Of a DNA stretch of 64,000 bases, positions 33,694 to 46,831 are shown piece after piece. The notes below the pieces were generated by a model. It had not been told where the DNA came from. It did not search any database and worked only from the letters and a program-made list of their open reading frames with translations. Source of the stretch: Escherichia coli (GTDB lineage Bacteria > Pseudomonadota > Gammaproteobacteria > Enterobacterales > Enterobacteriaceae); NCBI RefSeq assembly GCF_013315695.1, contig NZ_CP054353.1. One strand, given 5' to 3'. The position numbers and the translations under genes are program-made. The stretch's first letter is position 1. Each line of letters starts with the position of its first letter.

Positions 33694-34092
33694 TTATCTG
33701 GATTTGTTAACGTCTTTCGTCTCCTCTGGCAGATCTTCATCAAACAACCTGCCCTGCATCCGATCCAGTTCTTCTTTTCTGACCCGCTTAACCACGCTGT
33801 AGACCCACTGAAGCGAAACACCAAAATTGCGGGCCAGTTCGTGGTGGTTGCGTCCGTTAAACTCCCTGAAGATTTCCCGGTCGCGCTGACTGACCTTCCA
33901 TACCATGCCCATCGGGAAATAAACGTTTTGCCCGCCCCAGACCTGCATCATTCGGTTCGCGACGGCCTGACCAATCTGGTCGGCAATTGCGGGCTCAATA
34001 TCAATAATCTCGCGAACGGTCTCAGAGGTATGCTGTGCCAGTTCCACCAGGAGTTCCGGCCCTTTACTTCGAAACTGATTCAGGTCGCTCAT
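33694..34092 (-). CDS. mor: Mor/C-family transcriptional activator (middle/late gene activator)
   Basis: 132 aa; C-terminal HTH ...ELARNFGVSLQWVYSVVKR... typical of the Mu Mor/C family. Confidence 0.7.
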   Translation of the reverse strand: MSDLNQFRSKGPELLVELAQHTSETVREIIDIEPAIADQIGQAVANRMMQVWGGQNVYFPMGMVWKVSQRDREIFREFNGRNHHELARNFGVSLQWVYSVVKRVRKEELDRMQGRLFDEDLPEETKDVNKSR

Positions 34093-34555
34093 GTTTTACT
34101 CCCGCAGCTCTGCGCTGCCACTTCTTCAGTTTCTCAATAACACTGCTTGCCTGTTCAGTATTGAGCCAGCGCAGGGCGCTGATGCCCGTTTCCCGCTTGA
34201 TCCACCGCGCTAATGCATTTTCTGAACGGTCACGAACAATGCCGGCAGCAGCCATTTCAAGCCATAGCGCACGGATTTTCCTGGACTGCGGATGGTTATC
34301 CAGCGGTAAACCGGAGCTGGCTTTTCTGGCAGGCTTAACGCGAAAGCCTTTCCTTTTCATGGATTCCAGCACGCAGTTTAGTTGTGTGGTATCCATTCCT
34401 TTGGTTGAGGCTTTACCGGTCAGCCCCTGTAACATCTGGCGGTAGGTGTCTTCATCCATACCCAGTTCATTACGGGCAATATGAATGAGCTGGATAAGAC
34501 GTTGTTTAGTCATCATCGTTGCTCCTTTTACCTGCGCCACCGATATAATCGACAT
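34064..34555 (-). CDS. gemA: GemA-like protein (Mu gp16 family, DUF1018)
   Basis: 163 aa; similarity to Mu GemA/gp16-type proteins. Confidence 0.65.
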   Translation of the reverse strand: MSIISVAQVKGATMMTKQRLIQLIHIARNELGMDEDTYRQMLQGLTGKASTKGMDTTQLNCVLESMKRKGFRVKPARKASSGLPLDNHPQSRKIRALWLEMAAAGIVRDRSENALARWIKRETGISALRWLNTEQASSVIEKLKKWQRRAAGVKHERPESVSK

Positions 34556-34877
34556 ATAAAGGAAGCGCCACAGGCCAGCACAGGAACATCACCGACCAGC
34601 TAATCCAGTAGCCGGCACCACTGTAACGTGAATAAAACCCTGAACGGCGGTGCAGTTCAGCAGTACACCAACCGACAAAACAATACCAGAACAGGGCACA
34701 TACAACAGATTCAGCCGTCATTCTGAATATCCCCCCAACTGATATGAATATTACGGGCAGCAATGACAGGGTCGTTATTCCACCATGCACCTGACATGTA
34801 TTTTTCAACCTGTTCGCGTCCGGCAATAACACCAATTGTGATCCCCGGCCTGACGTTCTTAAAAAAGGCGCGGGCAA
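34506..34877 (-). CDS. Hypothetical small membrane protein (real start probably the internal Met, about 71 aa)
   Basis: Hydrophobic ORF in the early-operon orientation overlapping the gemA 5' end. Confidence 0.3.
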   Translation of the reverse strand: MPAPFLRTSGRGSQLVLLPDANRLKNTCQVHGGITTLSLLPVIFISVGGIFRMTAESVVCALFWYCFVGWCTAELHRRSGFYSRYSGAGYWISWSVMFLCWPVALPLYVDYIGGAGKRSNDDD

Positions 34878-34937
34878 AAAGGTATCTGGCAGATATTCGG
34901 CAGGCTTTTAATTTCCGGCTGTTACCTGATAGCGTAA

Positions 34938-35657
34938 TCATCTGGCCTCCAGTTTCTGTTGTTCCTGCCCACTGACCGGGCGGTGCAGTCTGACGTTCTG
35001 CCCTTCACGAAACCCCGCATAGCGCGAGGCGTCGCCATTGCGGCTTCTTCCCGGTTTACGCGCCCTGGTGGTTTGCGTCTGCGGGTATTTATGTTCCAGC
35101 CACTGCTGCATCAGTTCACGCTCATCATCGGTCAGGGCAAAGGACTGTATTTCACTGATAACGGCCAGCACCCAGCCTTCGGCAAACTGGTCTCCACGGC
35201 TGGTGCGGGTGGCGGTTTTTATTCTTTTGTTCTGTGCACTGATATACTGCTGACGCGCCTTTTTCAGCTGACGGGCCAGCACTTCCCAGGTGTATGCAGC
35301 CAGTGCCGCACGTTCCCGGTTGCCGTAGAACCCCACAGACGGGTGCGTGCCGGGGTGAATGATGGAGTTAACACCAAATACCTCGCGGATGATGTTCATC
35401 AGGCCCAGCATGTAGCGCGGTGGACGGAGACTGCCTGTCGGCCAGTAGTGACTGATGGTTTCATCAATATCACTCATAGCAATGTCGGAATGTGTGATGC
35501 CGTGAACATCCATCAGTTTACGGGCTCGGCGCAGTGCCAGAGCGGCCTCGTGCGGGTTGCCGGATGCGGCCAGCGCCAGCAACTTTTTCAGTTTCTCAAT
35601 GTGTTTATTCTGGTCTGTCATTGTTCTGTATCTCCGGTATTTTTCTGCCGTTTCCAT
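34938..35657 (-). CDS. DUF2786-like early protein
   Basis: 239 aa; N-terminal KLLALAASGNPHEAALALRRARKLM motif typical of this Mu-like prophage family. Confidence 0.5.
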   Translation of the reverse strand: METAEKYRRYRTMTDQNKHIEKLKKLLALAASGNPHEAALALRRARKLMDVHGITHSDIAMSDIDETISHYWPTGSLRPPRYMLGLMNIIREVFGVNSIIHPGTHPSVGFYGNRERAALAAYTWEVLARQLKKARQQYISAQNKRIKTATRTSRGDQFAEGWVLAVISEIQSFALTDDERELMQQWLEHKYPQTQTTRARKPGRSRNGDASRYAGFREGQNVRLHRPVSGQEQQKLEAR

Positions 35658-35833
35658 GCCCGGACAGCGTCGGACAGCTCTTTCAGGCTGTATGCTGCTT
35701 TAAGCTTTTCCCATAACCACTGTGTTGTTATGTGCATCAGCAGGGCAGCCAGGGCTGCCCCCGCACTGAGGCATGTCGCCAGGCCAGTAAGAATCAGTGT
35801 CCATGCGGTGATTTCCCTGAGTATGTCAGCCAT
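35618..35833 (-). CDS. Hypothetical small membrane protein (71 aa)
   Basis: One TM segment; in operon orientation. Confidence 0.4.
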   Translation of the reverse strand: MADILREITAWTLILTGLATCLSAGAALAALLMHITTQWLWEKLKAAYSLKELSDAVRAWKRQKNTGDTEQ

Positions 35834-35847
35834 TGAATGCCTCCCGG

Positions 35848-36144
35848 TTACTCGTTCGTGTAAATCACGCCCAGTCGTGCAGCCAGACGTTCCAGTTTTT
35901 TCTGTTTGTGGAAGTCAATCAGCCGGTCCATCCCCTGAAGGCGCAGTTGCTCTGTCATGATTTCCACGTCTGCCAGCTCTGCCGCGAGGTCACTTTCGCT
36001 GCCCTGTCCGTTCAGGTTGCGGGCGGCACTGGCCGCCAGTTCAGCGGCCTCTTCTGCCAGTTTCAGGGCCTGTGCGTCCGGCCCGAAACGCTGCAGGGCC
36101 AGACGGTAGAGGGCGGTGCGGGTGAGTTCGGTGTTTCGTGTCAT
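35848..36144 (-). CDS. Small MazG-like nucleotide pyrophosphohydrolase domain protein
   Basis: 98 aa; ...LKLAEEAAELAASAA...ELADVEIMTEQL... resembles the MazG/HisE-type helical NTP-PPase core. Confidence 0.5.
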   Translation of the reverse strand: MTRNTELTRTALYRLALQRFGPDAQALKLAEEAAELAASAARNLNGQGSESDLAAELADVEIMTEQLRLQGMDRLIDFHKQKKLERLAARLGVIYTNE

Positions 36145-36153
36145 GCCGCGCCC

Positions 36154-36426
36154 TCAGTGCTTCCGGCTGACGGTGATGTGCAGGCCGCCTTCTGCAGTGG
36201 TTTCCATCCGGTACGGCACCTCATGCTCTGCCGTGTGGGTGAGTGTGTTCATCAGTACCTGCAGGGCAGCCTCCTTTCCGTTGGTCGCCACAATGGCCTG
36301 TGTGGCCATGCTGATTAGCGCCGTCAGGACGTGATTCACATCGGTGAGGTCGCGGCATTCACACTCGTTGACATAGTGTTCAACAAGGGTTCGGGTGCGC
36401 TGTCGTGCTTCCTGTGGGGTAATCAT
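36154..36426 (-). CDS. Hypothetical protein (90 aa)
   Basis: ORF in early-operon orientation, compact spacing. Confidence 0.4.
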   Translation of the reverse strand: MITPQEARQRTRTLVEHYVNECECRDLTDVNHVLTALISMATQAIVATNGKEAALQVLMNTLTHTAEHEVPYRMETTAEGGLHITVSRKH

Positions 36427-36617
36427 TGCGCGTCCTCCCTGTCAGGGCGGGAGAATTCCATGACGGGCACGTCCGCCGAAAAATGCTGGCTGCAGTACGG
36501 GCAGACCAGGGTGACACGTACTGCAGGTATGTGATACTTACCGGACATCACGGCGATGGCGCTGTGAAAACGCAGGGCTGTTATATCCCTCTCGCACTGA
36601 ATACATTTAAATATCAT
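36423..36617 (-). CDS. Small zinc-ribbon protein
   Basis: 64 aa with CxxC (CIQC) ... CPYC motifs. Confidence 0.45.
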   Translation of the reverse strand: MIFKCIQCERDITALRFHSAIAVMSGKYHIPAVRVTLVCPYCSQHFSADVPVMEFSRPDREDAQ

Positions 36618-36714
36618 AATTTAATTCTCCTCTGTTTCCGGCGTGCAGAAGCCCACGGCGCTGACGCCGGAATAAAAAAGAAAATGTTTTTATTAAATAA
36701 TTAACGTGGTGTGT

Positions 36715-37245
36715 TTACTGCACATCCTGCTCAAAAGGAATTATTGAAAAATCCTCAATGTCGCTTTTAATGGAAATACCGGGAATATTTTTCACGGCCT
36801 CTTTTTCATTCAGAATGGCATCTTTATTTATTTCCTCCTTTACACGAATAAAGCGCTCAAGCCCCAGACGTCTCAGCAGTTCAATGACATTATCCGCCCC
36901 GCGAATGCTGACTGACGGCGGACGGTTTCGCCACTGCACCTCGCCGGTGGTGAGGTTAGCGAACTTCACCTTCCCGTTGCCGGTCAGTTCATCACGGTGC
37001 GCCTCACACCATGTCTGGATACCGGACTGCAGTTCGGCCATGCGTTTTTTCAGGCTCTCGGTGAGCGGGGCATAACGTGCAGTGATGTCGCCAATGGTGT
37101 CATTCATTTCTGTTTCAGCCCTGACCAGTTCACGTTGCGCGTCACCAAGCAGTCTGATTCCCTCAATGACCTCTTCGCGTGTCCCCGGCACCCAGAGTGC
37201 TGCTGCGGCTTTGATACGTTTTGCCCCTTTTGTACTTTTTGCCAT
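36715..37245 (-). CDS. gam: Host-nuclease inhibitor Gam (Mu Gam / Ku-like)
   Basis: 176 aa; near-colinear with Mu Gam (MAK...KRIK.AAA...ETEMND...GKVK.ANL.TG.V.WR.RPPSVSIRG...FIR.K.EINK.AIL...EDFSIIPFEQ). Confidence 0.95.
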   Translation of the reverse strand: MAKSTKGAKRIKAAAALWVPGTREEVIEGIRLLGDAQRELVRAETEMNDTIGDITARYAPLTESLKKRMAELQSGIQTWCEAHRDELTGNGKVKFANLTTGEVQWRNRPPSVSIRGADNVIELLRRLGLERFIRVKEEINKDAILNEKEAVKNIPGISIKSDIEDFSIIPFEQDVQ

Positions 37246-37272
37246 ATTTTATGACTCCTCCTGTTGTGCTGA

Positions 37273-37542: not shown

Positions 37543-37544
37543 TA

Positions 37545-38711
37545 TTAAACCCCTTTGACAACGTCAGCGTTGACCTGTGGAACCCCGATTTCAGCGGCCA
37601 GATTCATGGCGGCTATCACCAGGTTACTGACGGCCAGCGGATACAGCAGGCTGACCATATTTTTACGATGACTTCCCGGATTGCTCAGGCGGGCACGTAT
37701 GGCATCCACTGCGCTGGCGTCCATAATGTCCGTCAGTTGTTTACCGGCCCGTTGCAGTTTGAACGTCAGAAATTCTTCAAGGTTATTGTCCAGAGGCAGA
37801 AGTTCGACCACCTCACAACGCTGAACGACTTCACGGACTTCCATATTGCGTTCAGACAGTTTTGTCGCCAGTTCCGGCTGGCCAATCAGCACGATGGACA
37901 GCAGTTTTTTGAAACCGGACTCCAGCTCAAAAAAGCGTTTGAGGTGTTTCAGTGTCGGAATGGGCAGACTGTGGGCCTCCTCAATCACCAAAACGTGGCT
38001 GAACCCCGCCTGGCTGCTGTCTTTCAGGACGCGATGCAACTGGCGAAAGCGGGCGTCCTGACTGCGTCTGATGCTTTCCAGTGGTGCGATGGTACTGATA
38101 ATGGCTTCGGCAATCGCTGCTGCCTTCAGGGTTTTCCCTTTCACATCGTTGTCTTCCATAGCGATGATGTATGGCTCGATAACAATTACCGGCGCATTCT
38201 CGCGGTTGATACGTTCAGTCAGGTCGCGGCGCAGCGTGGATTTACCCGCACCGGACTCACCGATGACGGCCATAAACCCACCATGACGGGCTGTCTGGTA
38301 CAACGCCTCACGCACGTAGCGAATGTCCGGGGTGGTGAACACATCATCAGAACCCTGCATGGCTTCATCGGCGAACGGGTCACGGAAAAGACCAAACGCT
38401 TTTTTGGTTGCTGGAAATAACACCTGTTTTTTGAGTAACATATTCTCTTCCTCACTGAGGCTCGTTTTATCTGTGGTACCCGCTGTACGGGGCGTGGCTG
38501 CGCCCTGTACAGCATCAAAACTCTTCGTTGTATCAATCCCCTGACTTTCCAGCCAGGACGCAAGACGCCGGCGCACTTCTCCGGGGCTGGTGCGGGGCCA
38601 CGCGTTATGATTCACAATCTGGGCCAGCGTGGCCTCAGAAACATCGACAGCTCTCGCCACCACCGCCTGTGGGATACGGGCCTCTTTCAGTTGCTGCTTC
38701 AGTACCAGCAT
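37545..38711 (-). CDS. B: Transposition ATPase B-like (AAA+, TniB/ExeA-type Walker A GESGAGKST)
   Basis: 388 aa from ATG 38711 preceded by GAGGAGG; N-terminal HTH-like segment, central P-loop ATPase; immediately downstream of transposase. Confidence 0.7.
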   Translation of the reverse strand: MLVLKQQLKEARIPQAVVARAVDVSEATLAQIVNHNAWPRTSPGEVRRRLASWLESQGIDTTKSFDAVQGAATPRTAGTTDKTSLSEEENMLLKKQVLFPATKKAFGLFRDPFADEAMQGSDDVFTTPDIRYVREALYQTARHGGFMAVIGESGAGKSTLRRDLTERINRENAPVIVIEPYIIAMEDNDVKGKTLKAAAIAEAIISTIAPLESIRRSQDARFRQLHRVLKDSSQAGFSHVLVIEEAHSLPIPTLKHLKRFFELESGFKKLLSIVLIGQPELATKLSERNMEVREVVQRCEVVELLPLDNNLEEFLTFKLQRAGKQLTDIMDASAVDAIRARLSNPGSHRKNMVSLLYPLAVSNLVIAAMNLAAEIGVPQVNADVVKGV

Positions 38712-38721
38712 GTTTTCCTCC

Positions 38722-40491
38722 TCAGTTGCCGTTAACAATGCTGATAACACTGCTGCGTGCCGGCGTGGTCAGCGTGGCCATGACTTCATCCAGTGCAGCT
38801 TCCGGTACGCCGTCCGGGTACTGTGCCGTTAACTGGCGGTAATGTTCCGGCGTCCAGGTAAGGCCGTCGGCGCTGAACTTATCGCGCAGGGCTTTCGCGG
38901 CCTCCACATGAGTCATGGGACGTTGTTCAGTGCGCGGCCCGCGTACGTCAGAGGCCTGACCACGCTTCGGCATATAGGCCGGAAGTGTGGTGTCGTCGAT
39001 ATGTTTATACGGGTCAAGCCGCCCGCCGAACGGCAGCGCCTTCGCCTTGCGTGCGGCGGCTGCATCTGCGGCGTTGTCTGTACCGGTAACCAGCGCTTCA
39101 GTTTCTTTTGCCGCCATCTGTGCCGAGGTTTCCGGCAGGGCTTTGTAACTTTCGCCAAATACCGCCGCGCCTTCAGCAAAGCCAAACTCGTTCTTTCTGA
39201 CCTCTTCGACCAGGAAGAACGTCTCGTGGCCGTCCTCACCGGTCAGAACCACCTGTGCCACATCGCTGCGCCATGGGTTACGGGTAATCATCAGTTTTTC
39301 ACCAACCAGTACGCCCGGTACCGTTGATACGTCAAATTCAGTGCCCCGGAACGAGACACGAAGTTTTGGCGTGACTTTGCGGAGTTCTGGTGCCGCCACA
39401 GCCAGTTCACGACATACCTCAACGGAAGGCGCTTTTTTCAGCTGCTCAGCAGTAATCTTCAGCCAGATATCCGTGCGGGTTTTACCGTGGCGGCTGTGAA
39501 CAGCCGTGGCGTTAAAGTGGCTGCGCCATTTCGCGGCCAGCGCGTTGAGTTCTTCCAGACTGTGAACCGGCCGGAACTTCAGCCCCGGCTCCAGCTTGCG
39601 TTCGATAATGTCACGCGCCTTTTCCACCTGTCCGGTGGCGCGGGCGTTATGCGGCTTGTGCGCTATCAGGTCGATGCCCAGTGAGCGGCACATGTTTTTC
39701 GTCATACCCGCGGTGTTTGCCGAGCCGGGGTCGAGATAGAGTATTTTCGGCACGCCGTGCAGCACGTCTGCGCCGCCACGCTCCTGCATGGCGTTGATAA
39801 GCACAGAGCACAGGTTCTCACCTGATTCCGCGCCCGTCACATACTCAACGTAAATCCAGCCGCTGGCATGGTCGGTAATCTCGTAACTCCACACGCGGTC
39901 ACTGGCGATACGGGCAAGGTTAGCGGGCTTGTTCTTGTAGAACTTCGCGCTGTCCATCACCTGCAGCCCTTTATGTCCATTGCTCAGGTAGTAAAGCGTG
40001 CAGAGTGAGGCGTCAATCTGCCAGACATGATTGGGATGCAGACTGGCCACTTCGGTATGTGGTGCAGGGGCATCCAGTTGTTCCGGGTGCAGGCCATAGT
40101 TACGCAGAGCACGGCTGATGGCATCTTCAGACAACGGGAAAAACTCACTGGTGGTTTCATCTGTTCTGCCTGCGGTGATAAAGCCGTTAGCCCGCAGGGT
40201 TTCCACTGCATCTGCGATGGAATAGAGACGCTTACCGTTCTTGCGGGTGGCCTCACGCAGTGTGGCAGATATCAGCGCGGCTTCGTCGCGGGTCAGGGCG
40301 CTGCGCCCGGCATCGGCGCGTTTTTTGCGTTTATCAGTCACAGAGACCTCCTTCAGCCTGCGCAGCAGAGTGGCGCGGGACATGCCAAGTTCAGCACAGG
40401 CAGCGTCGTATATTGCACCGCGTTTACCATGCCCCGCGTCACGTGCCGCGCGGGCGACATAAACCAGTCGTTCAGTCAGGGCAGCATTCAT
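38722..40491 (-). CDS. A: DDE transposase (Mu A-like, integrase-fold catalytic core)
   Basis: 589 aa; N-terminal HTH, central core with HVWQIDASL-type first Asp region, C-terminal domain. Confidence 0.75.
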   Translation of the reverse strand: MNAALTERLVYVARAARDAGHGKRGAIYDAACAELGMSRATLLRRLKEVSVTDKRKKRADAGRSALTRDEAALISATLREATRKNGKRLYSIADAVETLRANGFITAGRTDETTSEFFPLSEDAISRALRNYGLHPEQLDAPAPHTEVASLHPNHVWQIDASLCTLYYLSNGHKGLQVMDSAKFYKNKPANLARIASDRVWSYEITDHASGWIYVEYVTGAESGENLCSVLINAMQERGGADVLHGVPKILYLDPGSANTAGMTKNMCRSLGIDLIAHKPHNARATGQVEKARDIIERKLEPGLKFRPVHSLEELNALAAKWRSHFNATAVHSRHGKTRTDIWLKITAEQLKKAPSVEVCRELAVAAPELRKVTPKLRVSFRGTEFDVSTVPGVLVGEKLMITRNPWRSDVAQVVLTGEDGHETFFLVEEVRKNEFGFAEGAAVFGESYKALPETSAQMAAKETEALVTGTDNAADAAAARKAKALPFGGRLDPYKHIDDTTLPAYMPKRGQASDVRGPRTEQRPMTHVEAAKALRDKFSADGLTWTPEHYRQLTAQYPDGVPEAALDEVMATLTTPARSSVISIVNGN

Positions 40492-40494
40492 TGG

Positions 40495-41409
40495 TTATGC
40501 CTCCAGCCCGTTAATCTGTGGCGTCGGCTCAGTCAGCCATGAAGGCGCTGCATTGCCTGTTGGCTCGTCCGGCAGGTCAAATGTGGAGCGCAGGCTACGC
40601 GCTGTGCTTTCCAGTTGACAGACCAGGCCTGCCATGAAGTCTCTGGGGGTATCAATCATGTTTTCAGCACAATATGCGCACAGCGTCTCAAAAGCGCTGG
40701 ACAGTCGGACGGCGATAGCAGATTCCGCCTCAACCGCTAATGCTGTTACTTCCGCCCGCAGCTTCTTAACCTCCTCATCAGGCTCAGGCGGCTGAATACG
40801 GGATTTCTTCTCCAGTCTGGTGGAGAGTGAATCTATTTTTTCATTTTTGTCGGCGAGTACGCGCTGTTGTGCTGCGTTGGTTTCGCGCGCTTCGCGCAGG
40901 GCCTGACGCAATTCACGTACTGACATGCGATCAACGTCGTCAAGCGTCAGGCCGGCAACTGTGCCGCCGTCGGCCAATTCATCAAGTTCTTCATTATCCA
41001 GAACCATCAGGTCGTACAGTTTGGCTTTCCCCAAAACGCTCAACGTTGAGCGTTTTGTTGGCTCATCACCTTCTCCCAAAAACTTCATACTGGCTTGCAT
41101 CATGCGGCGAGCAACTTGTGGTGCAAGTCCGAGTTCATTTTCTAAAATGTTTGTAAAATCACCGTGTGGCTCATTTTCTTTTAAGATGATCAGCCGCTTA
41201 CCCGCTTCCAGCATAGATTCAGCACTCTGCGCCATATAAAAACGTGCTTCGTGAACAATGCGATCACGTTCATAAGGCAGTCCATCACCAAACTGCTGCA
41301 TAATTTCCATGCGATGCTGTGTCATAGCGTTCAAATTGACATTGATGTTATCTGACAGCGGAACCTCAACATTCAGTTCAGTGTTAACGGGTGATTTGGT
41401 GCGTCCCAT
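40495..41409 (-). CDS. Hypothetical coiled-coil early protein (304 aa)
   Basis: ORF between the Ner-like regulator and transposase; long acidic coiled-coil; no confident family assignment. Confidence 0.45.
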   Translation of the reverse strand: MGRTKSPVNTELNVEVPLSDNINVNLNAMTQHRMEIMQQFGDGLPYERDRIVHEARFYMAQSAESMLEAGKRLIILKENEPHGDFTNILENELGLAPQVARRMMQASMKFLGEGDEPTKRSTLSVLGKAKLYDLMVLDNEELDELADGGTVAGLTLDDVDRMSVRELRQALREARETNAAQQRVLADKNEKIDSLSTRLEKKSRIQPPEPDEEVKKLRAEVTALAVEAESAIAVRLSSAFETLCAYCAENMIDTPRDFMAGLVCQLESTARSLRSTFDLPDEPTGNAAPSWLTEPTPQINGLEA

Positions 41410-41419
41410 TGATTACTCC

Positions 41420-41728
41420 TTACAAACGACTACCTGAAATAACTCGTTGGTTGATTTCGTTAATACGATCCTGTGCACGCGCCATCTCGTGACTGTGAGC
41501 CATGGCGATCTGTAGTAACTGGATTCCCGGTGCGAAACGTCCGTTCTCTAATTTCATGGCCAGTCCCTCTTCAATAAGGGTATTAAGTGCTCGATTGATA
41601 TTCGCCGGGGACTCCCCCAGGGCTGATGCCAGTTCACCGTTAGAAACACCGTTCAGAGCATGACCGCGTAGAGCTTTGAGTACACGTAGGATGCGGGTCC
41701 CAGAACTGGAAATATTTACTTTACTCAT
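41420..41728 (-). CDS. Winged-helix DNA-binding protein (102 aa from internal Met)
   Basis: ...GELASALGESPANINRALNTLIEEGL... wHTH-like; ORF track start 41791 would overlap the upstream gene. Confidence 0.45.
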   Translation of the reverse strand: MSKVNISSSGTRILRVLKALRGHALNGVSNGELASALGESPANINRALNTLIEEGLAMKLENGRFAPGIQLLQIAMAHSHEMARAQDRINEINQRVISGSRL

Positions 41729-41780: not shown

Positions 41781-41969
41781 TTATGCCGCATTTGACGTGG
41801 GTTTTAATCCCAGTTTTACGGCAATTTCATGGGCTTTGCCGTAACGAGCTTTGGTCTGTCCATTGAGAACACGATAGACCTCATTGCGGCTGTAGCCGTG
41901 TTCTTCGGCCCAGCGGGTAAACGTGATACCACGCTGACGGAAGAGATTTTTAACTTGTTCGGAAGTCAT
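41781..41969 (-). CDS. Small HTH DNA-binding protein, Ner/Cro-like early regulator
   Basis: 62 aa; first gene of the leftward early operon, divergent from the putative repressor. Confidence 0.55.
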   Translation of the reverse strand: MTSEQVKNLFRQRGITFTRWAEEHGYSRNEVYRVLNGQTKARYGKAHEIAVKLGLKPTSNAA

Positions 41970-42052
41970 TGTTGTCTCCTTTGTTGATGCAATGATGTTT
42001 GTTTTATATGTGATAGATTATGAGAACTATTGTTCTCATTGTCAATGAGGTT
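41970..42052. promoter_or_regulatory. Divergent early/immunity control region with 20-bp palindromic operator candidate ATGAGAAC-tatt-GTTCTCAT (42020-42039)
   Basis: AT-rich intergenic region between divergent regulators; perfect 8-bp inverted repeat. Confidence 0.5.
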
Positions 42053-42481
42053 TGTGTGAATTTTGATTCTCTTTGCGCGTCGCGGTTCAAAGCTGAGCGT
42101 TCGCGGTTATCACTCAAGCAGGCTGAAGTAGCAGCCCTTTGTGGCGTTTCAAGAGAAATGTGGGGGAAATATGAACGAGGGGTTGCTGTTCCCGGAGGTG
42201 AGTTACTTGCAGCCTTTGCAAGAATTGGGGCCAATGTACAGTTCATTCTTACCGGGGAGTCATCAGGTATAACTTTATCACGTGATGAAATGGAGTTACT
42301 GCAGCACTACCGGCAGGCACCATTACAGGTCAAAGGTTCAGTTTTGTCGGCCTTGACTACTGGCTCCTCCAGAGAACGGGCGGAACAGGTTATTCATGGA
42401 GATGTTCTGGGGAATGTTATCAAAGGTAACGTAACCATAGGAACAGGTGGAATAATGAACAAAAATACCAAGAGAAGATGA
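42053..42481 (+). CDS. XRE-family HTH repressor (putative prophage immunity repressor)
   Basis: HTH ...LSLKQAEVAALCGVSREMWGKYERG...; start proposed at GTG 42053 (GAGG 5 nt upstream); ORF-track ATG 42020 lies inside the palindrome. Confidence 0.6.
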   Translation, partial: CVNFDSLCASRFKAERSRLSLKQAEVAALCGVSREMWGKYERGVAVPGGELLAAFARIGANVQFILTGESSGITLSRDEMELLQHYRQAPLQVKGSVLSALTTGSSRERAEQVIHGDVLGNVIKGNVTIGTGGIMNKNTKRR

Positions 42482-43464
42482 GTAAAGAGAAGCAAACAGT
42501 TAACGGGGATGTGGGTAACGTTGTCAGCGGTGATGTTACCATTCATAACTATTCTGCTGACATACTTCCTTCGGCCCAGCAACCAATTTCGTTGCTGCAA
42601 AAACGCGATTTACACAGATTGATGGATGAATTGGTTGATCTGGGGGAAAGTAAGCGCGAGCTATGGATGACGATCCACACGAAACTTAATACCAAAACAG
42701 TTAATGAAATGACTGCGGCTGATTATCATGGTGCGGTTGAGATCCTTCAGAGATATGCACAACAGATCCAGAATATGAAGGACTGTAATCTTCTGGTCAG
42801 CAAAATAATGGCGCTTACTGACCCTGGGTATCGTCTTGACCGTGACAGATACTGTCTGAAGCATTTCGGTACAACCCATCTTAAAGGCCTAGACAAAGAG
42901 CAGTTGCAGGCTGTGTTTGGTTATTTTGATGATCTGCTGAATATTCGTGATGAGAGTAAAACTCTATCACCTCCATCGGAAAGCGGTGCAAAATCAGTCG
43001 CAACTGTACCAACCAGAAGCCGGAAGCCTCATGTAGTAGTGTTGGGGGGAGTGTTAGTTCTTGTAGCAATATTTTTCGTGGGAATGATTGTGTTCGCTGG
43101 TAAATGGGGAAATGCCAAAGCAGTAGCTTCTACTGAAACCAGCGTTTTTAACATTAAAACCAACGATAAAATAATAGAAGATTCCATCCCCGCACTGCGC
43201 AGCATGTTTCCAGGGTTAAATAAGTACTCAGATGATTTCCATTCGGTTTCAAGCTACAAGCAAAAAACGGGCTGGCATACCCTTAAATTTACTGTATCAG
43301 CAAAGGCATCCGTCCCCGAAAATTATAGTGTTAAGGGCAAGGTTTGTTACATTAACATAAGCCCTGATGGTAGTTATGCTCGGGTTTTGACTGCTCCATG
43401 TCGTTCACTGCTACTTGATCAGCAAAGCACTCCTGACAGTAAATACCGTTTTATTCTTAAATAG
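42478..43464 (+). CDS. Hypothetical single-pass membrane protein (328 aa), translationally coupled to the repressor
   Basis: ATGA start/stop overlap with repressor; about 175-aa cytoplasmic N-domain, TM (VVVLGGVLVLVAIFFVGMIVFA), about 120-aa C-terminal domain; no recognisable family. Confidence 0.6.
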   Translation: MSKEKQTVNGDVGNVVSGDVTIHNYSADILPSAQQPISLLQKRDLHRLMDELVDLGESKRELWMTIHTKLNTKTVNEMTAADYHGAVEILQRYAQQIQNMKDCNLLVSKIMALTDPGYRLDRDRYCLKHFGTTHLKGLDKEQLQAVFGYFDDLLNIRDESKTLSPPSESGAKSVATVPTRSRKPHVVVLGGVLVLVAIFFVGMIVFAGKWGNAKAVASTETSVFNIKTNDKIIEDSIPALRSMFPGLNKYSDDFHSVSSYKQKTGWHTLKFTVSAKASVPENYSVKGKVCYINISPDGSYARVLTAPCRSLLLDQQSTPDSKYRFILK

Positions 43465-43545
43465 AAAATAACAGCTGAATTACCATGGGATCAGAAAAAA
43501 GACAAAGGCGGCATCATGCTGCGTTCTGAAATTTTAATGTAAAAG

Positions 43546-44136
43546 GTGATGAACATGGCAGGGATTCAGGTTATCGCAGGAAGTTTTCCTAAAGGGTGGG
43601 CAAGCATGGGGTTCGGTACCATCGTGTTTGCCAAAAAAACAAAACAAGGCTTTCCTGAAAATATTGTATTAAATCTGAAAGAAGAGCTTTTATCGATTGA
43701 ACTTGCGGATAGTGAAGAGGAAAGCCGTATAGGTAAGGCGGCAGGCGCAGGTTTGCTTGGTGGATTAATCTTTGGTGGTGCAGGGTTGGTCATTGGAGGT
43801 TTGCTTGGTGCGGCGGACAAGACGAAAAAAACTATCACTTTTAAGGCAATGTTTACGGGAAATAGGTTACTTCTGGCTAAAACAGATTCAAAAACTTTTG
43901 TAAAACTTCAGTCAATTGCTGCTGATAATGCCCATAACGCATCTGTAATCAACATGAAGCAAACTAATAGGGGCGATGTTTCTTCTCGTAAACAACTAAC
44001 AGAAAATCCACAGCAGCAAGACTTACCTGCGCCCGCTACAACAGTAAAAATGACTGCCAAAGATAAGTTAGAATCGGCTCTTGGGCTGGGAATCATCGTT
44101 ATAGCTGTTTGGGCAATAATACACTTCTTTTTTTAG
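43546..44136 (+). CDS. Hypothetical glycine-zipper membrane protein (196 aa)
   Basis: Central GxxxG-rich segment AAGAGLLGGLIFGGAGLVIGGLLGAA and C-terminal TM LGLGIIVIAVWAIIHFFF. Confidence 0.55.
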   Translation: MMNMAGIQVIAGSFPKGWASMGFGTIVFAKKTKQGFPENIVLNLKEELLSIELADSEEESRIGKAAGAGLLGGLIFGGAGLVIGGLLGAADKTKKTITFKAMFTGNRLLLAKTDSKTFVKLQSIAADNAHNASVINMKQTNRGDVSSRKQLTENPQQQDLPAPATTVKMTAKDKLESALGLGIIVIAVWAIIHFFF

Positions 44137-44173
44137 TGCAGCCCTTCAGGGCTGTTTCTGTTCAGGAGGTATC

Positions 44174-44650
44174 TTAAGGATTATCCGGGGCGTTTTCCTG
44201 TTTGCCGTACTTCGGAGACGAACAACATTCTGTTGGCTGACCGGTGAGTTTACGTAACTCCTTCATGAGCAGCTCCTGATCGTAAACTGTCATCAGTGCC
44301 GCAATGGTGGCATGCAGTGCATCGGGCAGTATCCAGGGTTGCCGGCCCGTGGGGCATATAACATCCAGCAGCTCATTCGTCCGACAGATACGCTCCTCGC
44401 CGTATGACAACAGGCCCTGTCCCGTGTATTCCTCTAGCCTGATCACTGTGCCACCCCGTGGCTTCTGCCAGGTCGTCAGATCTTCGCCATTCATACGGCG
44501 CTCATTCTCCACGTCAGCAGCATCGACAATGACGCTGTTTCCGAGTTCCTGTTTCACCATCTCTTCTATCCGCGCCAGTACGTAACTTTTACCGCTGCCC
44601 ACAGGACCGGACACAGTGACAGTGATGACCGGATTCAGTGTGTGCGTCAT
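44174..44650 (-). CDS. Small P-loop NTPase (158 aa), function unknown
   Basis: Walker A GPVGSGKS at residues 25-32, Walker-B-like VIVDAAD; convergent with the membrane protein genes. Confidence 0.55.
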   Translation of the reverse strand: MTHTLNPVITVTVSGPVGSGKSYVLARIEEMVKQELGNSVIVDAADVENERRMNGEDLTTWQKPRGGTVIRLEEYTGQGLLSYGEERICRTNELLDVICPTGRQPWILPDALHATIAALMTVYDQELLMKELRKLTGQPTECCSSPKYGKQENAPDNP

Positions 44651-44780
44651 ATCGTATTCTCCTCTGTGAATAATTCATCGTTTATCCTGCACATCCCGTA
44701 TCCCCGGCTCTCTTAACGCGCTTTAAAATCCTTCGCGCCCTGTATTTGTGATGCTGTCTCCACCAAACGAGGAGACACAC

Positions 44781-45131
44781 ATGAAAAACCTGAAAAAATT
44801 CATTCCCCCTGTTAAAAAACCTCGCCTCAGCGGCTGGCTGCTGACCTCAGTGCTGTTGCTGGGCACCATCGCTCTGGTCTCACCACAGCAGCTGCCTGTT
44901 GTGATCTACAAGCTGGCACTCATCACGCTGGCAGCAGTGCTGGGTTACTGGCTTGACCGTTCGCTCTTCCCCAAAGCCCGTCCCGGTCAGTACCTGAAAC
45001 ATGACGACAGGCTGATGGCTGAAGGGCGTTTCCCGGTACAGACCGGCCTTCACCTGGTGTTTTCTGCTGCGTTAATCCGCCGTGCACTGATTGTTGCAGC
45101 GGTCTGCCTGGCTGTTGCGATGGGGCTTTAA
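44781..45131 (+). CDS. Putative holin (3 TM segments)
   Basis: 116 aa from ATG 44781 (GAGGAG upstream); first gene of lysis cassette upstream of endolysin. Confidence 0.5.
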   Translation: MKNLKKFIPPVKKPRLSGWLLTSVLLLGTIALVSPQQLPVVIYKLALITLAAVLGYWLDRSLFPKARPGQYLKHDDRLMAEGRFPVQTGLHLVFSAALIRRALIVAAVCLAVAMGL

Positions 45132-45133
45132 TC

Positions 45134-45874
45134 ATGAACTGGCCGCAGATCACCTGGATTGTATGCATGTCCCTGAAACTGGCTTTCGAAGCCTTTCGGG
45201 TCTTCATCAGAACCGAACGCCTGTCAGTCCGCGCCGGGACCTTTCTGGTTCATATGGCATGGGTATTCTTTGTCGCAATGTTGCTCTGGTGTGGCGGCTT
45301 TTTCAGCCAGGCATGCGCAGCACAACCTCCGCAGGCTGCGCTGCAGTATCGCGATGATGTGATCCGTAATGCCCGGCTTGAATGGGGACTGTCTGCGCCG
45401 GTGGCCGATTTCGCCGCGCAACTGCATCAGGAAAGCGGCTGGCGACCTGATGCGATCTCGCCGGCTGGCGCTCAGGGACTGGCGCAGTTCATGCCTGCCA
45501 CTGCCGACTGGATAAGCCAGTTGATACCGATGCTGAGCAGTCGTGAGCCGTTTAATCCGGCATGGGCTATCCGGGCGCTGGTCAGCTATGACCGCTGGCT
45601 GTGGCAGCGTGTCAGCGCCGCCAGTGACTGCGAGCGTATGGCCATGACACTGTCGGGCTATAACGGTGGTCTGGGCTGGGTACAACGGGACAGGCGGCTT
45701 GCATCACAGAAAGGTCTGGACAGCACCCGCTGGTTCGGACATGTCGCCACGGTGAATGCCGGACGCAATGCGGCCAGCTGGCGGGAGAACCGCCATTATC
45801 CGCAGCGCATCCTGCGCGAACTGGCACCGCGATATCTCACATGGGGAGGCAGCAGTTGTGTGGCATCTGGTTAA
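45134..45874 (+). CDS. Endolysin, lytic transglycosylase (SLT domain) with N-terminal hydrophobic signal-anchor-release-like segment (start may be 45254)
   Basis: Catalytic region ...HQESGWRPDAISPAGAQGLAQFMPATA...; hydrophobic Gly-containing N-terminal stretch. Confidence 0.75.
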   Translation: MNWPQITWIVCMSLKLAFEAFRVFIRTERLSVRAGTFLVHMAWVFFVAMLLWCGGFFSQACAAQPPQAALQYRDDVIRNARLEWGLSAPVADFAAQLHQESGWRPDAISPAGAQGLAQFMPATADWISQLIPMLSSREPFNPAWAIRALVSYDRWLWQRVSAASDCERMAMTLSGYNGGLGWVQRDRRLASQKGLDSTRWFGHVATVNAGRNAASWRENRHYPQRILRELAPRYLTWGGSSCVASG

Positions 45875-46508
45875 AAAGCTGCCGTGGCGCGGCATTCTGC
45901 TGGCCATTCTTATCAATGCCTTTCTGGTCGGCCTGTATGCCATGGGATACAGAAGTGGTCATGACTCTGCAAAGCGTGACGGTGATACCGCGCTCAGTCA
46001 GTTGCAGTCAGCATTTGACGCGTACAAAACGGAGCAGGCAACGCTTGAGAATGCTGCGCTGCGGGCCTGGGCCAGACGGTATCAGGAGCAGGTGGCCGCC
46101 GGGCAGCGGGCTGAAGCCGGTTATCTTGAGCAGATTGCTCAACTGGAGAGCCGGAACAAACAACTACAGGGGCAAATTAACGATGTCACACAGCGCTGGA
46201 TTGATGAAAAAGGTAAGAGTCATCCCATTGAGTGCGTGTTTACTCGCGGTTTCGTGCGCCAGTACAACGCCGCACTCGGGTATGACAACGCATCTGTCGA
46301 CACCGGTCATTCAGACTCAGTTGCCGCCACTGGCACCCGCTCTGGCACAGCGACCGGGCAACCTGAAACCACTGACACCCGGTTACGCGATTCGGGTGTC
46401 TCCCAGCGTGACGTTCTCGCCAACATCATCGACAACGCAGGACAATGTCGTCGCTGGCGGAACCAGATAAACGCGTTACTGGATGAACGGGAAGGATTAC
46501 AGAAATGA
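45858..46508 (+). CDS. Inner-membrane spanin Rz-like (i-spanin)
   Basis: GTG start with GGAGG RBS; N-terminal TM then long coiled-coil; overlaps endolysin 3' end. Confidence 0.65.
   Translation: MWHLVKKLPWRGILLAILINAFLVGLYAMGYRSGHDSAKRDGDTALSQLQSAFDAYKTEQATLENAALRAWARRYQEQVAAGQRAEAGYLEQIAQLESRNKQLQGQINDVTQRWIDEKGKSHPIECVFTRGFVRQYNAALGYDNASVDTGHSDSVAATGTRSGTATGQPETTDTRLRDSGVSQRDVLANIIDNAGQCRRWRNQINALLDEREGLQK
46204..46470 (+). CDS. Outer-membrane lipoprotein spanin Rz1-like (o-spanin), embedded in the +1 frame of Rz
   Basis: MKKVRVIPLSAC... with lipobox LSAC, Pro-rich mature region. Confidence 0.6.
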   Translation: MKKVRVIPLSACLLAVSCASTTPHSGMTTHLSTPVIQTQLPPLAPALAQRPGNLKPLTPGYAIRVSPSVTFSPTSSTTQDNVVAGGTR

Positions 46509-46831
46509 CACTGCAGGTTGAATTCTGGACGGTGGTGAGTTTTTTGCTCACCTTCATGGGGTTTGTGGGAGGGCTCGCCAAATGGTTGTTCAGTAAAACA
46601 GAAGAACGCCAGGCGGCACGATTCGCCTCTCTTGAACAGGCCCTGCAACAGTCCGCATCCAACTGGGGCGAGCTGGAAAAAGAATTTATGCGATTTAAAG
46701 CGGATTTACCGCTGAATTATGTCCGTCGCGAGGATTATATCCGTGGCCAGACAGTCATCGAGGCCAAACTGGACGCGCTTTATAACAAACTGGAAGTGGT
46801 ACAGCAGTACCGCAATACCGGAGGTCAATAA
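46505..46831 (+). CDS. Small membrane-anchored protein (Mu gp25-like position)
   Basis: 108 aa; N-terminal TM then coiled-coil; between spanins and packaging genes. Confidence 0.45.
   Translation: MTLQVEFWTVVSFLLTFMGFVGGLAKWLFSKTEERQAARFASLEQALQQSASNWGELEKEFMRFKADLPLNYVRREDYIRGQTVIEAKLDALYNKLEVVQQYRNTGGQ

What the first reader, a model, noticed from the sequence alone, without database searches (positions are those of the whole stretch)
33694..46510. Atypical genome architecture for a Mu-type phage: early operon leftward, late operon rightward, immunity island in the middle
In Mu the repressor sits at the extreme left end and ner-A-B through the late genes all read rightward. Here Ner-like, A, B, gam, gemA and mor are on the minus strand running toward the left end, while lysis-head-tail genes are on the plus strand; the repressor and cargo genes lie between the two blocks. 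The B-like ATPase has a TniB/ExeA-type P-loop rather than resembling Mu B as I recall it. This matches what I recall of BcepMu-like prophages rather than Mu proper, and implies the Mor-like activator must act on late promoters 10 kb away on the other side of the immunity region.
Basis: partly seen in the sequence, partly recalled or inferred. Interest (0 to 1): 0.45.

Follow-up and report, generated by a model that had tools for sequence, protein, structure and literature searches.

The report
Ordinary BcepMu/B3-type transposable prophage
The region is the left 31 kb of a common E. coli transposable prophage whose "backwards" early operon is the normal, already published layout of BcepMu/B3-type phages rather than an anomaly of phage Mu.

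Summary
Mor, GemA, Gam, an AAA+ "B-like" ATPase, a DDE transposase and a small HTH protein all lie on the minus strand (33694-41969). A cI-type repressor, three cargo genes and the lysis, head and tail genes follow, all on the plus strand except one cargo ORF. It is not a misassembly. The element is a clean 37,491-bp insertion in dgcQ, with 5'-TG...CA-3' ends and a 6-bp target duplication (ACTGGT). The same left end abuts different host genes in other genomes.

Thirty-six genes are collinear and on the same strand as in BcepMu. The transposase, ATPase, repressor and Cro-like protein have no detectable Mu counterpart. This two-arm layout is in the literature for BcepMu and B3. The transposition core occurs in 642 of 5,426 complete E. 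coli genomes, and phage PhiKM is 96-97% identical to this prophage over the DNA they share.

One correction: Mu B also matches Pfam AAA_22, so the contrast between P-loop types is overstated.

One addition: three plus-strand sites in the window, and a fourth just beyond it, match the geometry of the Mor-binding site mapped experimentally in Mu Pm. They are the likely late promoters for the single Mor/C-family activator.

Interest is low.

The parts
32580..32585 (.). Left copy of the 6-bp target-site duplication ACTGGT in host gene dgcQ.
   Evidence: Junction sequences are. An empty site rebuilt with a single ACTGGT matches intact dgcQ at 100% over 400 bp, and 5,356 genomes hold it as one contiguous match.
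32586..32629 (+). Prophage left terminus, 5'-TGATCAG..., with two direct repeats TGAGATAAAT (32596-32606 and 32619-32629). These are the putative transposase-binding sites.
   Evidence: Three independent insertions diverge exactly at 32586. The repeat occurs only here in the 64-kb window. BcepMu ends have the same layout, and the right end carries two GCGATAAAT copies in inverted orientation.
32782..33579 (.). Two left-end cargo ORFs, 32782-32943 (+) and 32947-33579 (-), lying outside the early operon.
   Evidence: They are annotated in RefSeq and match PHROGs of unknown function. They gave no tblastn hit in BcepMu.
33621..33651 (-). Intrinsic-terminator hairpin followed by a U7 run. It probably marks the end of the early operon, just after mor.
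   Evidence: The consensus scan found it. The fold gives -20.1 kcal/mol with z = -6.7.
33694..34092 (-). The single Mor/C-family transcription activator, and the last gene of the early operon.
   Evidence: Pfam Mor, 3.6e-43. It is 55% identical to BcepMu gp01, 31% to Mu Mor and 35% to Mu C. It is the only Mor/C locus in the prophage.
34064..34555 (-). GemA homologue. RefSeq places the start so that the gene spans 34064-34513.
   Evidence: Pfam GemA, 7.7e-41. It is 44% identical to BcepMu gp02 and 36% to Mu GemA.
34506..36617 (-). Semi-essential early genes: small ORFs, a DUF2786/DUF7168 protein and an NTP pyrophosphohydrolase-like protein.
36715..37245 (-). Gam host-nuclease inhibitor of the Mu type.
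   Evidence: Pfam Phage_Mu_Gam, 1.9e-40. It is 61% identical to Mu Gam and has no hit in BcepMu.
37545..38711 (-). Transposition ATPase, the 'B-like' protein named ExeA family in RefSeq. It has an AAA_22 core with Walker A motif GESGAGKST.
   Evidence: Pfam AAA_22, 3.7e-20. PHROG 296 'DNA transposition protein'. It is 59% identical to BcepMu gp08. BLASTP against Mu B gives E=2.4.
38722..40491 (-). DDE (rve) transposase of the BcepMu/B3 type, which the literature calls Tn552-related.
   Evidence: Pfam rve is the only domain found. It is 68% identical to BcepMu gp09 and 57% to Pseudomonas transposable phages. It has no Mu A domains. Its best NCBIfam hits, IS481 and IS21, are below their cut-offs.
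40495..41728 (-). A DUF3102 protein (40495-41409) and an IclR-like HTH regulator (41420-41728). They are homologues of BcepMu gp10 and gp12.
41781..41969 (-). BcepMu gp16-family HTH protein. It is the first gene of the early operon, in the position that Cro or Ner occupies in other phages.
   Evidence: TIGR04111, 94.4 bits against a cut-off of 34. It is 45% identical to BcepMu gp16.
42017..42045 (-). Candidate early promoter Pe (TTGACA, 17-nt spacer, CATAAT). A perfect 8-bp inverted repeat, ATGAGAAC-N4-GTTCTCAT (42020-42039), lies in its spacer and is a candidate operator.
   Evidence: The promoter scan scores 11 of 12. The inverted repeat is reported and read directly.
42020..42481 (+). cI/Cro-type (HTH_3) repressor, transcribed divergently from the early operon.
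   Evidence: Pfam HTH_31 and HTH_3. It is 39% identical to BcepMu gp17 and 36% to the B3 c2-like repressor.
42478..44650 (.). Low-GC cargo. It comprises a 328-aa protein whose start overlaps the repressor stop by 4 nt, a 193-aa protein, and on the minus strand a 158-aa truncated P-loop ORF. It forms part of a swappable immunity and cargo cassette, 42022-44185.
   Evidence: There are no Pfam or PADLOC hits above threshold. The PHROGs matched have unknown function, and PHROG 3787 is matched over only positions 1-157 of 242. Homology to PhiKM breaks at 42021 and resumes at 44186. GC content is 43-45%.
44712..44755 (+). Candidate late promoter P_lys. The Mor box is CTTAA-CGCGCT-TTAAA (44712-44727). 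A -10-like hexamer GATGCT (44750-44755) follows after 22 bp.
   Evidence: The geometry pattern taken from Mu Pm gives 4 hits in the window against 0.32 expected, and no shuffle of 100 reached that. Orthologous sites lie upstream of the holin gene in KP12, BcepMu, phiE255 and Ralstonia YO107_2. Homology to KP12 resumes exactly at 44714.
44781..46508 (+). Lysis cassette: holin, SLT endolysin and spanin.
46505..51963 (+). Packaging and head genes: homologues of gp25 and gp26, TerS, TerL, portal, Mu F-like and Mu G-like proteins.
52007..52044 (+). Conserved hairpin at the centre of the genome, in the G-I intergenic region. Its core, TTTATAAAGGCTT, is identical across the family.
   Evidence: The sequences are compared. 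The fold gives -19.6 kcal/mol with z = -4.8.
52104..52147 (+). Candidate late promoter P_head. The Mor box is TCTAA-AGCAGA-TTAAA, followed after 22 bp by CAAACT. It lies upstream of the protease/scaffold gene.
52178..57994 (+). Head protease/scaffold, major capsid protein, connector proteins, and P2-type tail sheath and tube.
58001..58064 (+). A terminator-like hairpin (58001-58016) followed by candidate late promoter P_tail. The Mor box is CTTAA-TCTCCT-TTAAT (58021-58036), followed after 22 bp by CATACT (58059-58064).
58092..64000 (+). P2-type tail genes (assembly chaperone, tape measure, gpU, gpX, gpD, gpV...). They continue beyond the end of the window.

Best explanation
Window 32586-64000 is the left 31.4 kb of a 37.5-kb BcepMu/B3-type transposable (Mu-like) prophage inserted in E. 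coli dgcQ. Its divergent two-arm layout is the native, published organisation of this phage group.

Inferred working model:
1. In the lysogen, the cI-type repressor (42020-42481, +) occupies an inverted-repeat operator inside the spacer of the leftward early promoter Pe (42045-42017).
2. On induction, Pe drives an early transcript of about 8.4 kb. It runs through the gp16-family HTH protein, a regulator, the DUF3102 protein, the DDE transposase, the AAA+ target ATPase, Gam, GemA and Mor. It ends at a strong terminator (33651-33621).
3. The transposase binds the paired TGAGATAAAT/GCGATAAAT repeats at both TG...CA ends and transposes with a 6-bp stagger.
4. Mor is encoded last, so it is made late. 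It is a diffusible protein, so its distance from its targets does not matter.
5. Mor binds 16-bp dyad boxes (nnTAA-N6-TTAAn) positioned 22 bp upstream of weak -10 hexamers. Four plus-strand late promoters carry them: P_lys at 44712, P_head at 52104, P_tail at 58021, and a fourth upstream of gpW just beyond the window. At each, the box takes the place of a -35 element, as at Mu Pm.

Gene identities, strands, ends, target duplication and synteny are shown by the sequence. Promoters, operator, terminators and the Mor-to-late-promoter link are inferred.
For: - **Strands and families:**
- **Synteny:** 36 genes are collinear and on the same strand as in BcepMu, at 31-75% amino-acid identity. B3 has the same early arm.
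- **Literature:** Lavigne 2009 (PMC2771037) describes BcepMu genes 1-13 on the bottom strand, genes 17-52 on the top strand, a Tn552/IS1604-type transposase, and lysogeny control by gp16 and gp17 at the interface. [quoted passage not shown]
- **Ends and insertion:** the termini, target duplication and independent insertion sites are.
- **Prevalence:** 642 of 5,426 complete E. coli genomes carry the core. PhiKM is 96-97% identical over the DNA it shares with this prophage.
- **Mor box in Mu:** the Mu Pm Mor site was mapped to NC_000929 positions 9173-9188, AGTAA-AGCCGG-TTAAT. This used the published position of the site, -51 to -36, and was checked against the published bases -57G and -54A.
- **Mor box here:** the same geometry occurs at three plus-strand late intergenic sites in the window, plus the reverse reading of the P_lys box, giving 4 hits against 0.32 expected. 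It also occurs at orthologous positions in Klebsiella, Burkholderia and Ralstonia relatives.
- **Supporting checks:** no canonical sigma-70 promoter lies upstream of the late operons, there is only one Mor/C gene, and the terminator hairpins fold well.
Against: - There are no transcript data. The -10-like hexamers are weak (GATGCT, CAAACT, CATACT).
- I first spotted the box by eye in these intergenic regions, before formalising it from Mu Pm.
- BcepMu and phiE255 match the strict pattern at only two of the expected four positions.
- In Mu, Mor and C do not cross-activate each other's promoters, so similarity of binding sites does not prove which protein binds. This protein is equally distant from Mor and C.
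- The role of the ATPase in choosing the target rests on analogy only.
Confidence: 0.93

Rival explanations
1. The leftward early block is an assembly artefact, or a strain-specific inversion of a Mu-like prophage that otherwise has the Mu layout.
For: None was found.
Against: - The TG terminus and its transposase-binding repeats lie directly outside mor. Three independent genomes carry the same left end at different host sites: dgcQ, kefF and a DUF6645 gene.
- A clean 6-bp target duplication flanks the whole 37,491-bp unit.
- Phages BcepMu, phiE255, KP12, PhiKM and B3 have the same layout.
- The transposition and immunity proteins are not homologous to Mu's at all.
Confidence: 0.01
2. There are two adjacent elements rather than one phage: a Tn552-like transposon carrying Mu-like early genes, sitting next to a P2-like tail and head prophage.
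For: The tail module is P2-like and the transposase is of a transposon type. A low-GC cargo island separates the two blocks.
Against: - The matching terminal repeats and the target duplication bracket the entire 37.5 kb.
- The whole unit recurs at different chromosomal sites, and both arms occur together in the deposited phage records (PhiKM, KP12, BcepMu).
- The Mor gene in the left arm matches Mor boxes in the right arm.
Confidence: 0.02
3. Late expression runs through a three-tier cascade like Mu's. On this view Mor switches on an unrecognised second activator, and the boxes found are not direct Mor targets, or are something other than promoters such as terminator-associated or packaging signals.
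For: - Mu uses Mor and then C, and the two do not cross-activate (PMC4287176).
- The predicted -10 hexamers are weak, and some sit inside GC-rich inverted repeats.
- Several small ORFs have unknown function.
Against: - tblastn at E<=1 finds only one Mor/C-family locus in the prophage.
- The boxes lie directly upstream of all four late operons with the exact Pm geometry, and they are conserved across hosts whose flanking sequence is unalignable.
- Homology to KP12 resumes exactly at the P_lys box.
Confidence: 0.12

Closest known systems
Burkholderia phage BcepMu (Bcepmuvirus; Summer et al. 2004) and phiE255
   Same: - Two-arm layout, with mor at the extreme left on the bottom strand and gp16/gp17-type switch genes at the interface.
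- Holin, SLT endolysin and Rz/Rz1 lysis genes, Mu-type packaging and head genes, and a P2-type tail.
- 36 collinear homologues, including the transposase at 68% and the ATPase at 59% identity.
- TG...CA ends with paired GAGATA(A/T)(A/T)T repeats.
- Mor-box sites upstream of the holin and protease genes.
   Different: - Nucleotide similarity is only about 18% when identity is multiplied by coverage.
- This element has a Mu-type Gam, and outside the window a Gin-like invertase beside an oppositely oriented tail-fibre gene fragment. BcepMu lacks both.
- It has extra cargo at the left end and different cargo next to the immunity genes.
- It lacks the BcepMu gp53 acyltransferase.
Escherichia phage PhiKM, Klebsiella phage KP12, Escherichia phage Phi06_2974 B
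   Same: Essentially the same phage. PhiKM is 96-97% identical in nucleotides over 77-84% of the prophage, and its transposase is 99% identical. KP12 is 84-88% identical. The layout and the late-promoter boxes are the same.
   Different: The immunity and cargo cassette (42022-44185) is replaced. PhiKM and KP12 carry a Dam methylase and other genes there, so they are heteroimmune mosaic variants.
Pseudomonas phage B3 (Beetrevirus), the 'B3-like organisation' among transposable phages with a Tn552-related transposase
   Same: The early arm has the same order and orientation: Mor, GemA..., ATPase, transposase, DUF3102 protein, regulators, HTH protein, then a divergent cI-type repressor, then BcepMu-like lysis genes. 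The published target duplication for this transposase family is 6 bp.
   Different: B3 has a siphovirus tail. Its protein identity to this prophage is lower. Its repeated late-intergenic dyad is TTTTCG-N6-CGAAAA rather than TAA-N6-TTAA.
Escherichia phage Mu (Muvirus)
   Same: - Transposable temperate myovirus of about 37 kb with TG...CA ends.
- Homologues of Mor, GemA, Gam (61%), TerL (49%), portal, F, G and Gin (76%).
- Mor at the distal end of the early operon.
- The Pm Mor site AGTAA-AGCCGG-TTAAT, 22 bp upstream of the -10 hexamer, has the same geometry as the boxes here.
   Different: - In Mu the early operon reads rightward from a repressor at the left end.
- Mu A has DDE_2 and HTH_Tnp_Mu domains, Mu B has the MuB_C domain, and c and Ner belong to different families.
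- The Mu target duplication is 5 bp (textbook knowledge) against 6 bp here.
- Mu uses two activators, Mor and then C, against one here.
- The tail module here is P2-type.

Membership tests
BcepMu/B3-type transposable phages (Tn552-related transposase group) | [quoted passage not shown] | tested here: met
   The definition comes from PMC2771037 and PMC8705779. BcepMu and B3 show the same layout.
BcepMu/B3-type transposable phages (Tn552-related transposase group) | An rve-type DDE transposase homologous to BcepMu gp09 and B3 TnpA, not to Mu A. | tested here: met
   It is 68% identical to BcepMu gp09 over 98% of its length. Pfam finds only rve. Mu A domains are absent, and tblastn with Mu A against the prophage finds nothing at E<=1. 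Direct similarity to the Tn552 transposase itself was not tested.
BcepMu/B3-type transposable phages (Tn552-related transposase group) | An ExeA/GspA-like AAA+ transposition ATPase immediately downstream of the transposase gene. | tested here: met
   It is 59% identical to BcepMu gp08. It matches Pfam AAA_22 and PHROG 296.
BcepMu/B3-type transposable phages (Tn552-related transposase group) | 5'-TG...CA-3' termini, terminal transposase-binding repeats, and a 6-bp target-site duplication. | tested here: met
   The element reads TGATCAG...GCGCATCA with ACTGGT on both sides. The repeats are at 32596-32606 and 32619-32629, and two inverted copies lie at the right end.
BcepMu/B3-type transposable phages (Tn552-related transposase group) | Insertion at many unrelated chromosomal sites, as expected for transposition rather than site-specific integration. 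| tested here: met
   Insertions were read in dgcQ, kefF and a DUF6645 gene. The element is present in 642 genomes, with up to 3 copies per genome.
BcepMu/B3-type transposable phages (Tn552-related transposase group) | Replicative transposition during lytic growth, and random host DNA at the ends of virion DNA. | not testable with these tools
   This needs virion DNA sequencing or induction experiments.
BcepMu-like myoviruses specifically | A gp16-family HTH protein and a cI-type repressor at the switch, then an SLT endolysin lysis cassette and a P2-type tail module. | tested here: met
   TIGR04111 scores above its cut-off. The repressor is 39% identical to gp17, and the holin, SLT endolysin, spanin and homologues of gpFI, FII, U, X, D, V, W, J and I are all present.
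Genus Bcepmuvirus by nucleotide criterion (about 70% genome-wide identity; threshold recalled from ICTV practice, not checked here) | High nucleotide identity to BcepMu across the genome. | tested here: not met
   blastn aligns 27% of the prophage at 68% identity, which is about 18% overall. GenBank nevertheless files PhiKM under Bcepmuvirus.
Mu proper (Muvirus) | Mu A transposase (DDE_2 plus HTH_Tnp_Mu domains), Mu B with the MuB_C domain, c repressor at the left end, and Ner (HTH_35). | tested here: not met
   Pfam profiles of the Mu proteins and of the window proteins differ. BLASTP of the ATPase against Mu B gives E=2.4. tblastn with Mu A, B, c and Ner finds nothing significant.
Mu proper (Muvirus) | A two-activator cascade, with Mor acting at Pm to express C, and C acting at the late promoters. 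| tested here: not met
   The prophage holds only one Mor/C-family locus.
Mor-dependent promoters (Mu Pm type) | A 16-bp dyad (5-bp inverted repeats and a G/C-rich 6-bp spacer) centred near -43.5, with a recognisable -10 hexamer and no -35 hexamer. | tested here: inconclusive
   The geometry is met at 44712, 52104 and 58021, is conserved in relatives, and is statistically enriched. Transcription starts and Mor binding have not been tested.

The most novel reading that the evidence does not exclude
The single Mor/C-family protein of this phage lineage directly activates four late promoters carrying a Mu-Pm-type Mor box (nnTAA-N6-TTAAn, 22 bp upstream of the -10 hexamer). That would make a two-tier cascade in place of Mu's three tiers. 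The box is conserved from E. coli and Klebsiella phages to Burkholderia and Ralstonia phages, even though the flanking DNA is unalignable. I found no description of these sites in the searchable literature. A conserved hairpin at the genome centre, in the same intergenic position as Mu's strong gyrase site, could be a further functional element.
Probability: 0.4. Interest if true: 0.3.

Novelty: already known. Interest (0 to 1): 0.14.

Why it matters
The finding matters little as a discovery. It correctly recognises a common prophage type, present in about 12% of complete E. coli genomes, whose organisation has been in the literature since 2004. It has three practical uses:

- Annotators should not force the Mu map onto these elements.
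- The prophage interrupts dgcQ, a regulator of cellulose biosynthesis, in this strain.
- The mapped ends, switch region, terminators and Mor-box promoters give a ready-made regulatory map for anyone inducing or engineering this phage family.

Tried and rejected
- **Defence genes in the cargo:** a PADLOC scan of the cargo and left-end ORFs found nothing above noise.
- **Solved structures:** PDB sequence searches for the transposase and the ATPase gave only chance-level hits. No structure prediction was run because the question did not need it.
- **Second Mor/C gene:** a search for a second Mor/C gene or any Mu A, B, c, Ner, Lys, Com or Mom homologue found none.
- **Strong gyrase site:** the central G-I intergenic region was compared with the Mu SGS region and shows no sequence similarity.
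- **B3 promoters:** the TAA-N6-TTA pattern is absent from B3, which has a different dyad.
- **Literature:** Summer 2004, Oram and Pato 2004 and Braid 2004 are not held in the library.
- **First motif:** my first, stricter motif (TAANNCNNWTTAAWA) was derived from the sites themselves and missed P_tail. I replaced it with the geometry taken from the experimentally mapped Mu Pm site.
- **Target duplication:** my first reading of the junction suggested a 4-5 bp duplication. Independent insertions fixed the terminus at TG and the duplication at 6 bp.

Full report
**Observation.**
- On the minus strand lie Mor (33694-34092), GemA (34064-34555), a DUF2786/DUF7168 protein, Gam (36715-37245), an AAA_22 ATPase (37545-38750), an rve transposase (38722-40491), a DUF3102 protein, an IclR-like HTH protein and a 62-aa HTH protein (41781-41969).
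- On the plus strand lie an HTH_3 repressor (42020-42481), two unannotated ORFs, a holin, an SLT endolysin and a spanin ending at 46508. A minus-strand 158-aa P-loop ORF sits at 44174-44650.
- AT skew is negative across 34-42 kb and rises to near zero or positive from about 45 kb.
- The window is 100% identical to E. coli isolate AF3 (NZ_OZ547117.1), whose RefSeq annotation shows the same arrangement.

**Boundaries, and why this is not a misassembly.**
- The prophage interrupts dgcQ.
- Its left terminus is at window 32586 (5'-TGATCAG...). Its right terminus (...GCGCATCA-3') is at about 70076, outside the window.
- ACTGGT is present on both sides.
- An empty site rebuilt with a single ACTGGT matches intact dgcQ at 100% over 400 bp in Nissle 1917 and other strains. 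In all, 5,356 genomes hold it as one contiguous match. The insertion is therefore a clean 37,491 bp with a 6-bp target duplication.
- In two other genomes the same left end, with mor next to it, abuts kefF and a DUF6645 gene. The sequences diverge exactly at 32586.
- The left end carries two TGAGATAAAT repeats, which occur nowhere else in the window. The right end carries two inverted GCGATAAAT copies. BcepMu ends have the same design.

**What it is.**
- By tblastn, 36 of the prophage's genes are collinear and on the same strand as in Burkholderia phage BcepMu, at 31-75% amino-acid identity. The transposase is 68% identical and the ATPase 59%.
- Against Mu, only Mor, GemA, Gam (61%), TerL (49%), portal, F, G, part of a baseplate protein, part of a tail fibre and the invertase (76%) match.
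- Mu A, B, c, Ner, C, Lys, Com and Mom find nothing in the prophage.
- Pfam shows why. Mu A has DDE_2, HTH_Tnp_Mu_1, HTH_Tnp_Mu_2 and Mu-transpos_C domains, whereas this transposase has only rve. Mu c carries HTH_Tnp_Mu_1 and Ner carries HTH_35, whereas the switch proteins here are an HTH_3 repressor and a BcepMu gp16-family protein (TIGR04111, 94 bits against a cut-off of 34).
- The closest deposited phages are Escherichia phage PhiKM (96-97% nucleotide identity over the DNA it shares), Klebsiella phage KP12 and Phi06_2974 B.
- Pseudomonas phage B3 has the same early arm.

**The ATPase claim.**
- There is no pairwise similarity to Mu B (BLASTP E=2.4), and the MuB_C domain is absent.
- However, Mu B itself hits Pfam AAA_22 at 1.1e-21, comparable to this protein's 3.7e-20.
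- The only TniB hit, which is below threshold, belongs to Mu B.
- 'ExeA family' is the RefSeq name for this protein.

**What is already published.**
- Lavigne et al. [quoted passage not shown] They describe a Tn552/IS1604-type transposase unrelated to Mu A, lysogeny control by gp16 and gp17 at the interface, then the lysis cassette and a P2-like tail.
[quoted passage not shown] They-bp repeats the footprint of B3/Tn552-family transposases.
- A 2018 paper by Toussaint and Van Gijsegem is devoted to the genomic organisations of this group. I could cite it but not read it.
- The B-A-DUF3102 core is present in 642 of 5,426 complete E. coli genomes.
- The architecture is therefore real, and atypical only relative to Mu.

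**How Mor reaches the late genes.** Mor is a diffusible protein, so the 10-kb distance poses no mechanistic problem. The useful question is where it acts.
1. Using the published description of the Mu Pm Mor site (a 16-bp dyad at -51 to -36, with 5-bp inverted repeats and a G/C-rich 6-bp spacer, centred at -43.5), I mapped it in NC_000929 to 9173-9188, AGTAA-AGCCGG-TTAAT. It lies 22 bp upstream of TATCCT. The published bases -57G and -54A fall on a G and an A under this numbering.
2. The geometry pattern TAA-N6-TTAA-N24-A-NNN-T gives four hits in the 64-kb window against 0.32 expected, and none of 100 shuffles reached that.
3. Three hits are on the plus strand in late intergenic regions:
   - 44712-44755, upstream of the holin gene;
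   - 52104-52147, upstream of the protease/scaffold gene;
   - 58021-58064, upstream of the tail-assembly gene.
   The fourth hit is the reverse reading of the P_lys box.
4. A fourth promoter-like site lies upstream of gpW, just beyond the window.
5. Orthologous boxes occur at the same positions in KP12 and Ralstonia YO107_2 (four each) and in BcepMu and phiE255 (two each), although the flanking DNA is otherwise unalignable.
6. Homology to KP12 resumes exactly at the first base of the pattern match at P_lys (44714; the box itself starts at 44712).
7. No canonical -35/-10 promoter precedes the late operons, and there is only one Mor/C gene.
8. I therefore infer a two-tier cascade: Pe drives the early operon ending in Mor, and Mor then activates four late promoters. 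This inference is untested.

**Other regulatory anatomy (inferred).**
- Pe is TTGACA-17-CATAAT on the minus strand at 42045-42017.
- A perfect inverted repeat, ATGAGAAC-N4-GTTCTCAT, sits in its spacer.
- A strong terminator follows mor (33651-33621; -20.1 kcal/mol, z = -6.7).
- Hairpins precede P_head and P_tail.

**Mosaicism.**
- Homology to PhiKM breaks at 42021 and resumes at 44186, so the repressor and cargo form a swappable cassette.
- The 158-aa P-loop ORF is a truncated copy of a 242-aa family.
- The cargo gave no defence-system hits.
- Gam and the invertase are Mu-like and are absent from BcepMu.
- Nucleotide similarity to BcepMu is only about 18%. The E. coli lineage is therefore BcepMu-like in proteins and layout, but it is not close to BcepMu at the DNA level.

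**Verdict.** Interest is low. The only possibly new element is the family-wide set of Mor-box late promoters, and I could not check whether it has been published.

Noticed in passing
window 52007-52044: A hairpin lies in the intergenic region between the Mu G-like and protease genes, about 19.4 kb from the left end of the 37.5-kb element, so at the genome centre. Its core, TTTATAAAGGCTT, is identical in the E. coli, Klebsiella, Burkholderia and Ralstonia relatives. Its outer stem shows compensatory changes (GCTGTA/TACAGC against CCCGTA/TACGGG). This is the same intergenic position as Mu's strong gyrase site, but there is no sequence similarity to it. It may be a terminator, a protein-binding site, or both.
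   Followed up: partly
L001 11507-11535 and 18834-18862; L010 (Ralstonia) late promoters; L003 36870-36899: In several predicted late promoters the -10-like hexamer sits in the loop of a GC-rich inverted repeat, for example ATGCCGTC-CAAGAT-GACGGCAT. In the BcepMu and Ralstonia P_head sites an ATG follows the hexamer by 6-7 nt, which hints at leaderless mRNAs. This is unexplained.
   Followed up: no
window 42022-44185 (and 44174-44650): The immunity and cargo cassette is swapped relative to PhiKM and KP12, which carry a Dam methylase there. The 328-aa ORF overlaps the repressor stop by 4 nt and has weak N-terminal similarity to Flk (2.9e-12, far below the cut-off). The 158-aa P-loop ORF is a truncated remnant of a 242-aa PHROG family. 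No PADLOC hits were found.
   Followed up: partly
window 32782-33579: Two ORFs of 53 aa (+) and 210 aa (-) lie between the left terminus and the terminator that follows mor. They gave no tblastn hit in BcepMu, and their function is unknown (PHROGs 15726 and 12870).
   Followed up: partly
window 32580-32585 and host flanks 31835-32585: The prophage splits dgcQ (yedQ), a diguanylate cyclase that regulates cellulose biosynthesis. Only 5 complete genomes share this insertion site. Other copies of the phage sit in kefF, inside another prophage, and at other sites.
   Followed up: partly
L003 38915-42476 (beyond the window's right edge, about window 66437-69998): The right end has a tail-fibre gene, a tail-fibre assembly gene, an oppositely oriented tail-fibre gene fragment, and a recombinase 76% identical to Mu Gin. 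Together these look like a Mu G-segment-type invertible host-range switch. The literature says BcepMu lacks one.
   Followed up: no
L012 (phage B3) 11560-11600, 19830-19856, 26815-26845: B3 has its own repeated dyad, TTTTCG-N6-CGAAAA, upstream of its holin, protease and tape-measure genes. It is presumably the B3 counterpart of the Mor box, with a different specificity.
   Followed up: no
window 1-16875: The tail half of a separate lambdoid prophage occupies the start of the window (major capsid through tape measure, gpJ, Lom and tail fibre). Host genes from zinT to dgcQ follow. The low-GC stretch at 15-27 kb spans that prophage's tail-fibre end and these host genes.
   Followed up: no
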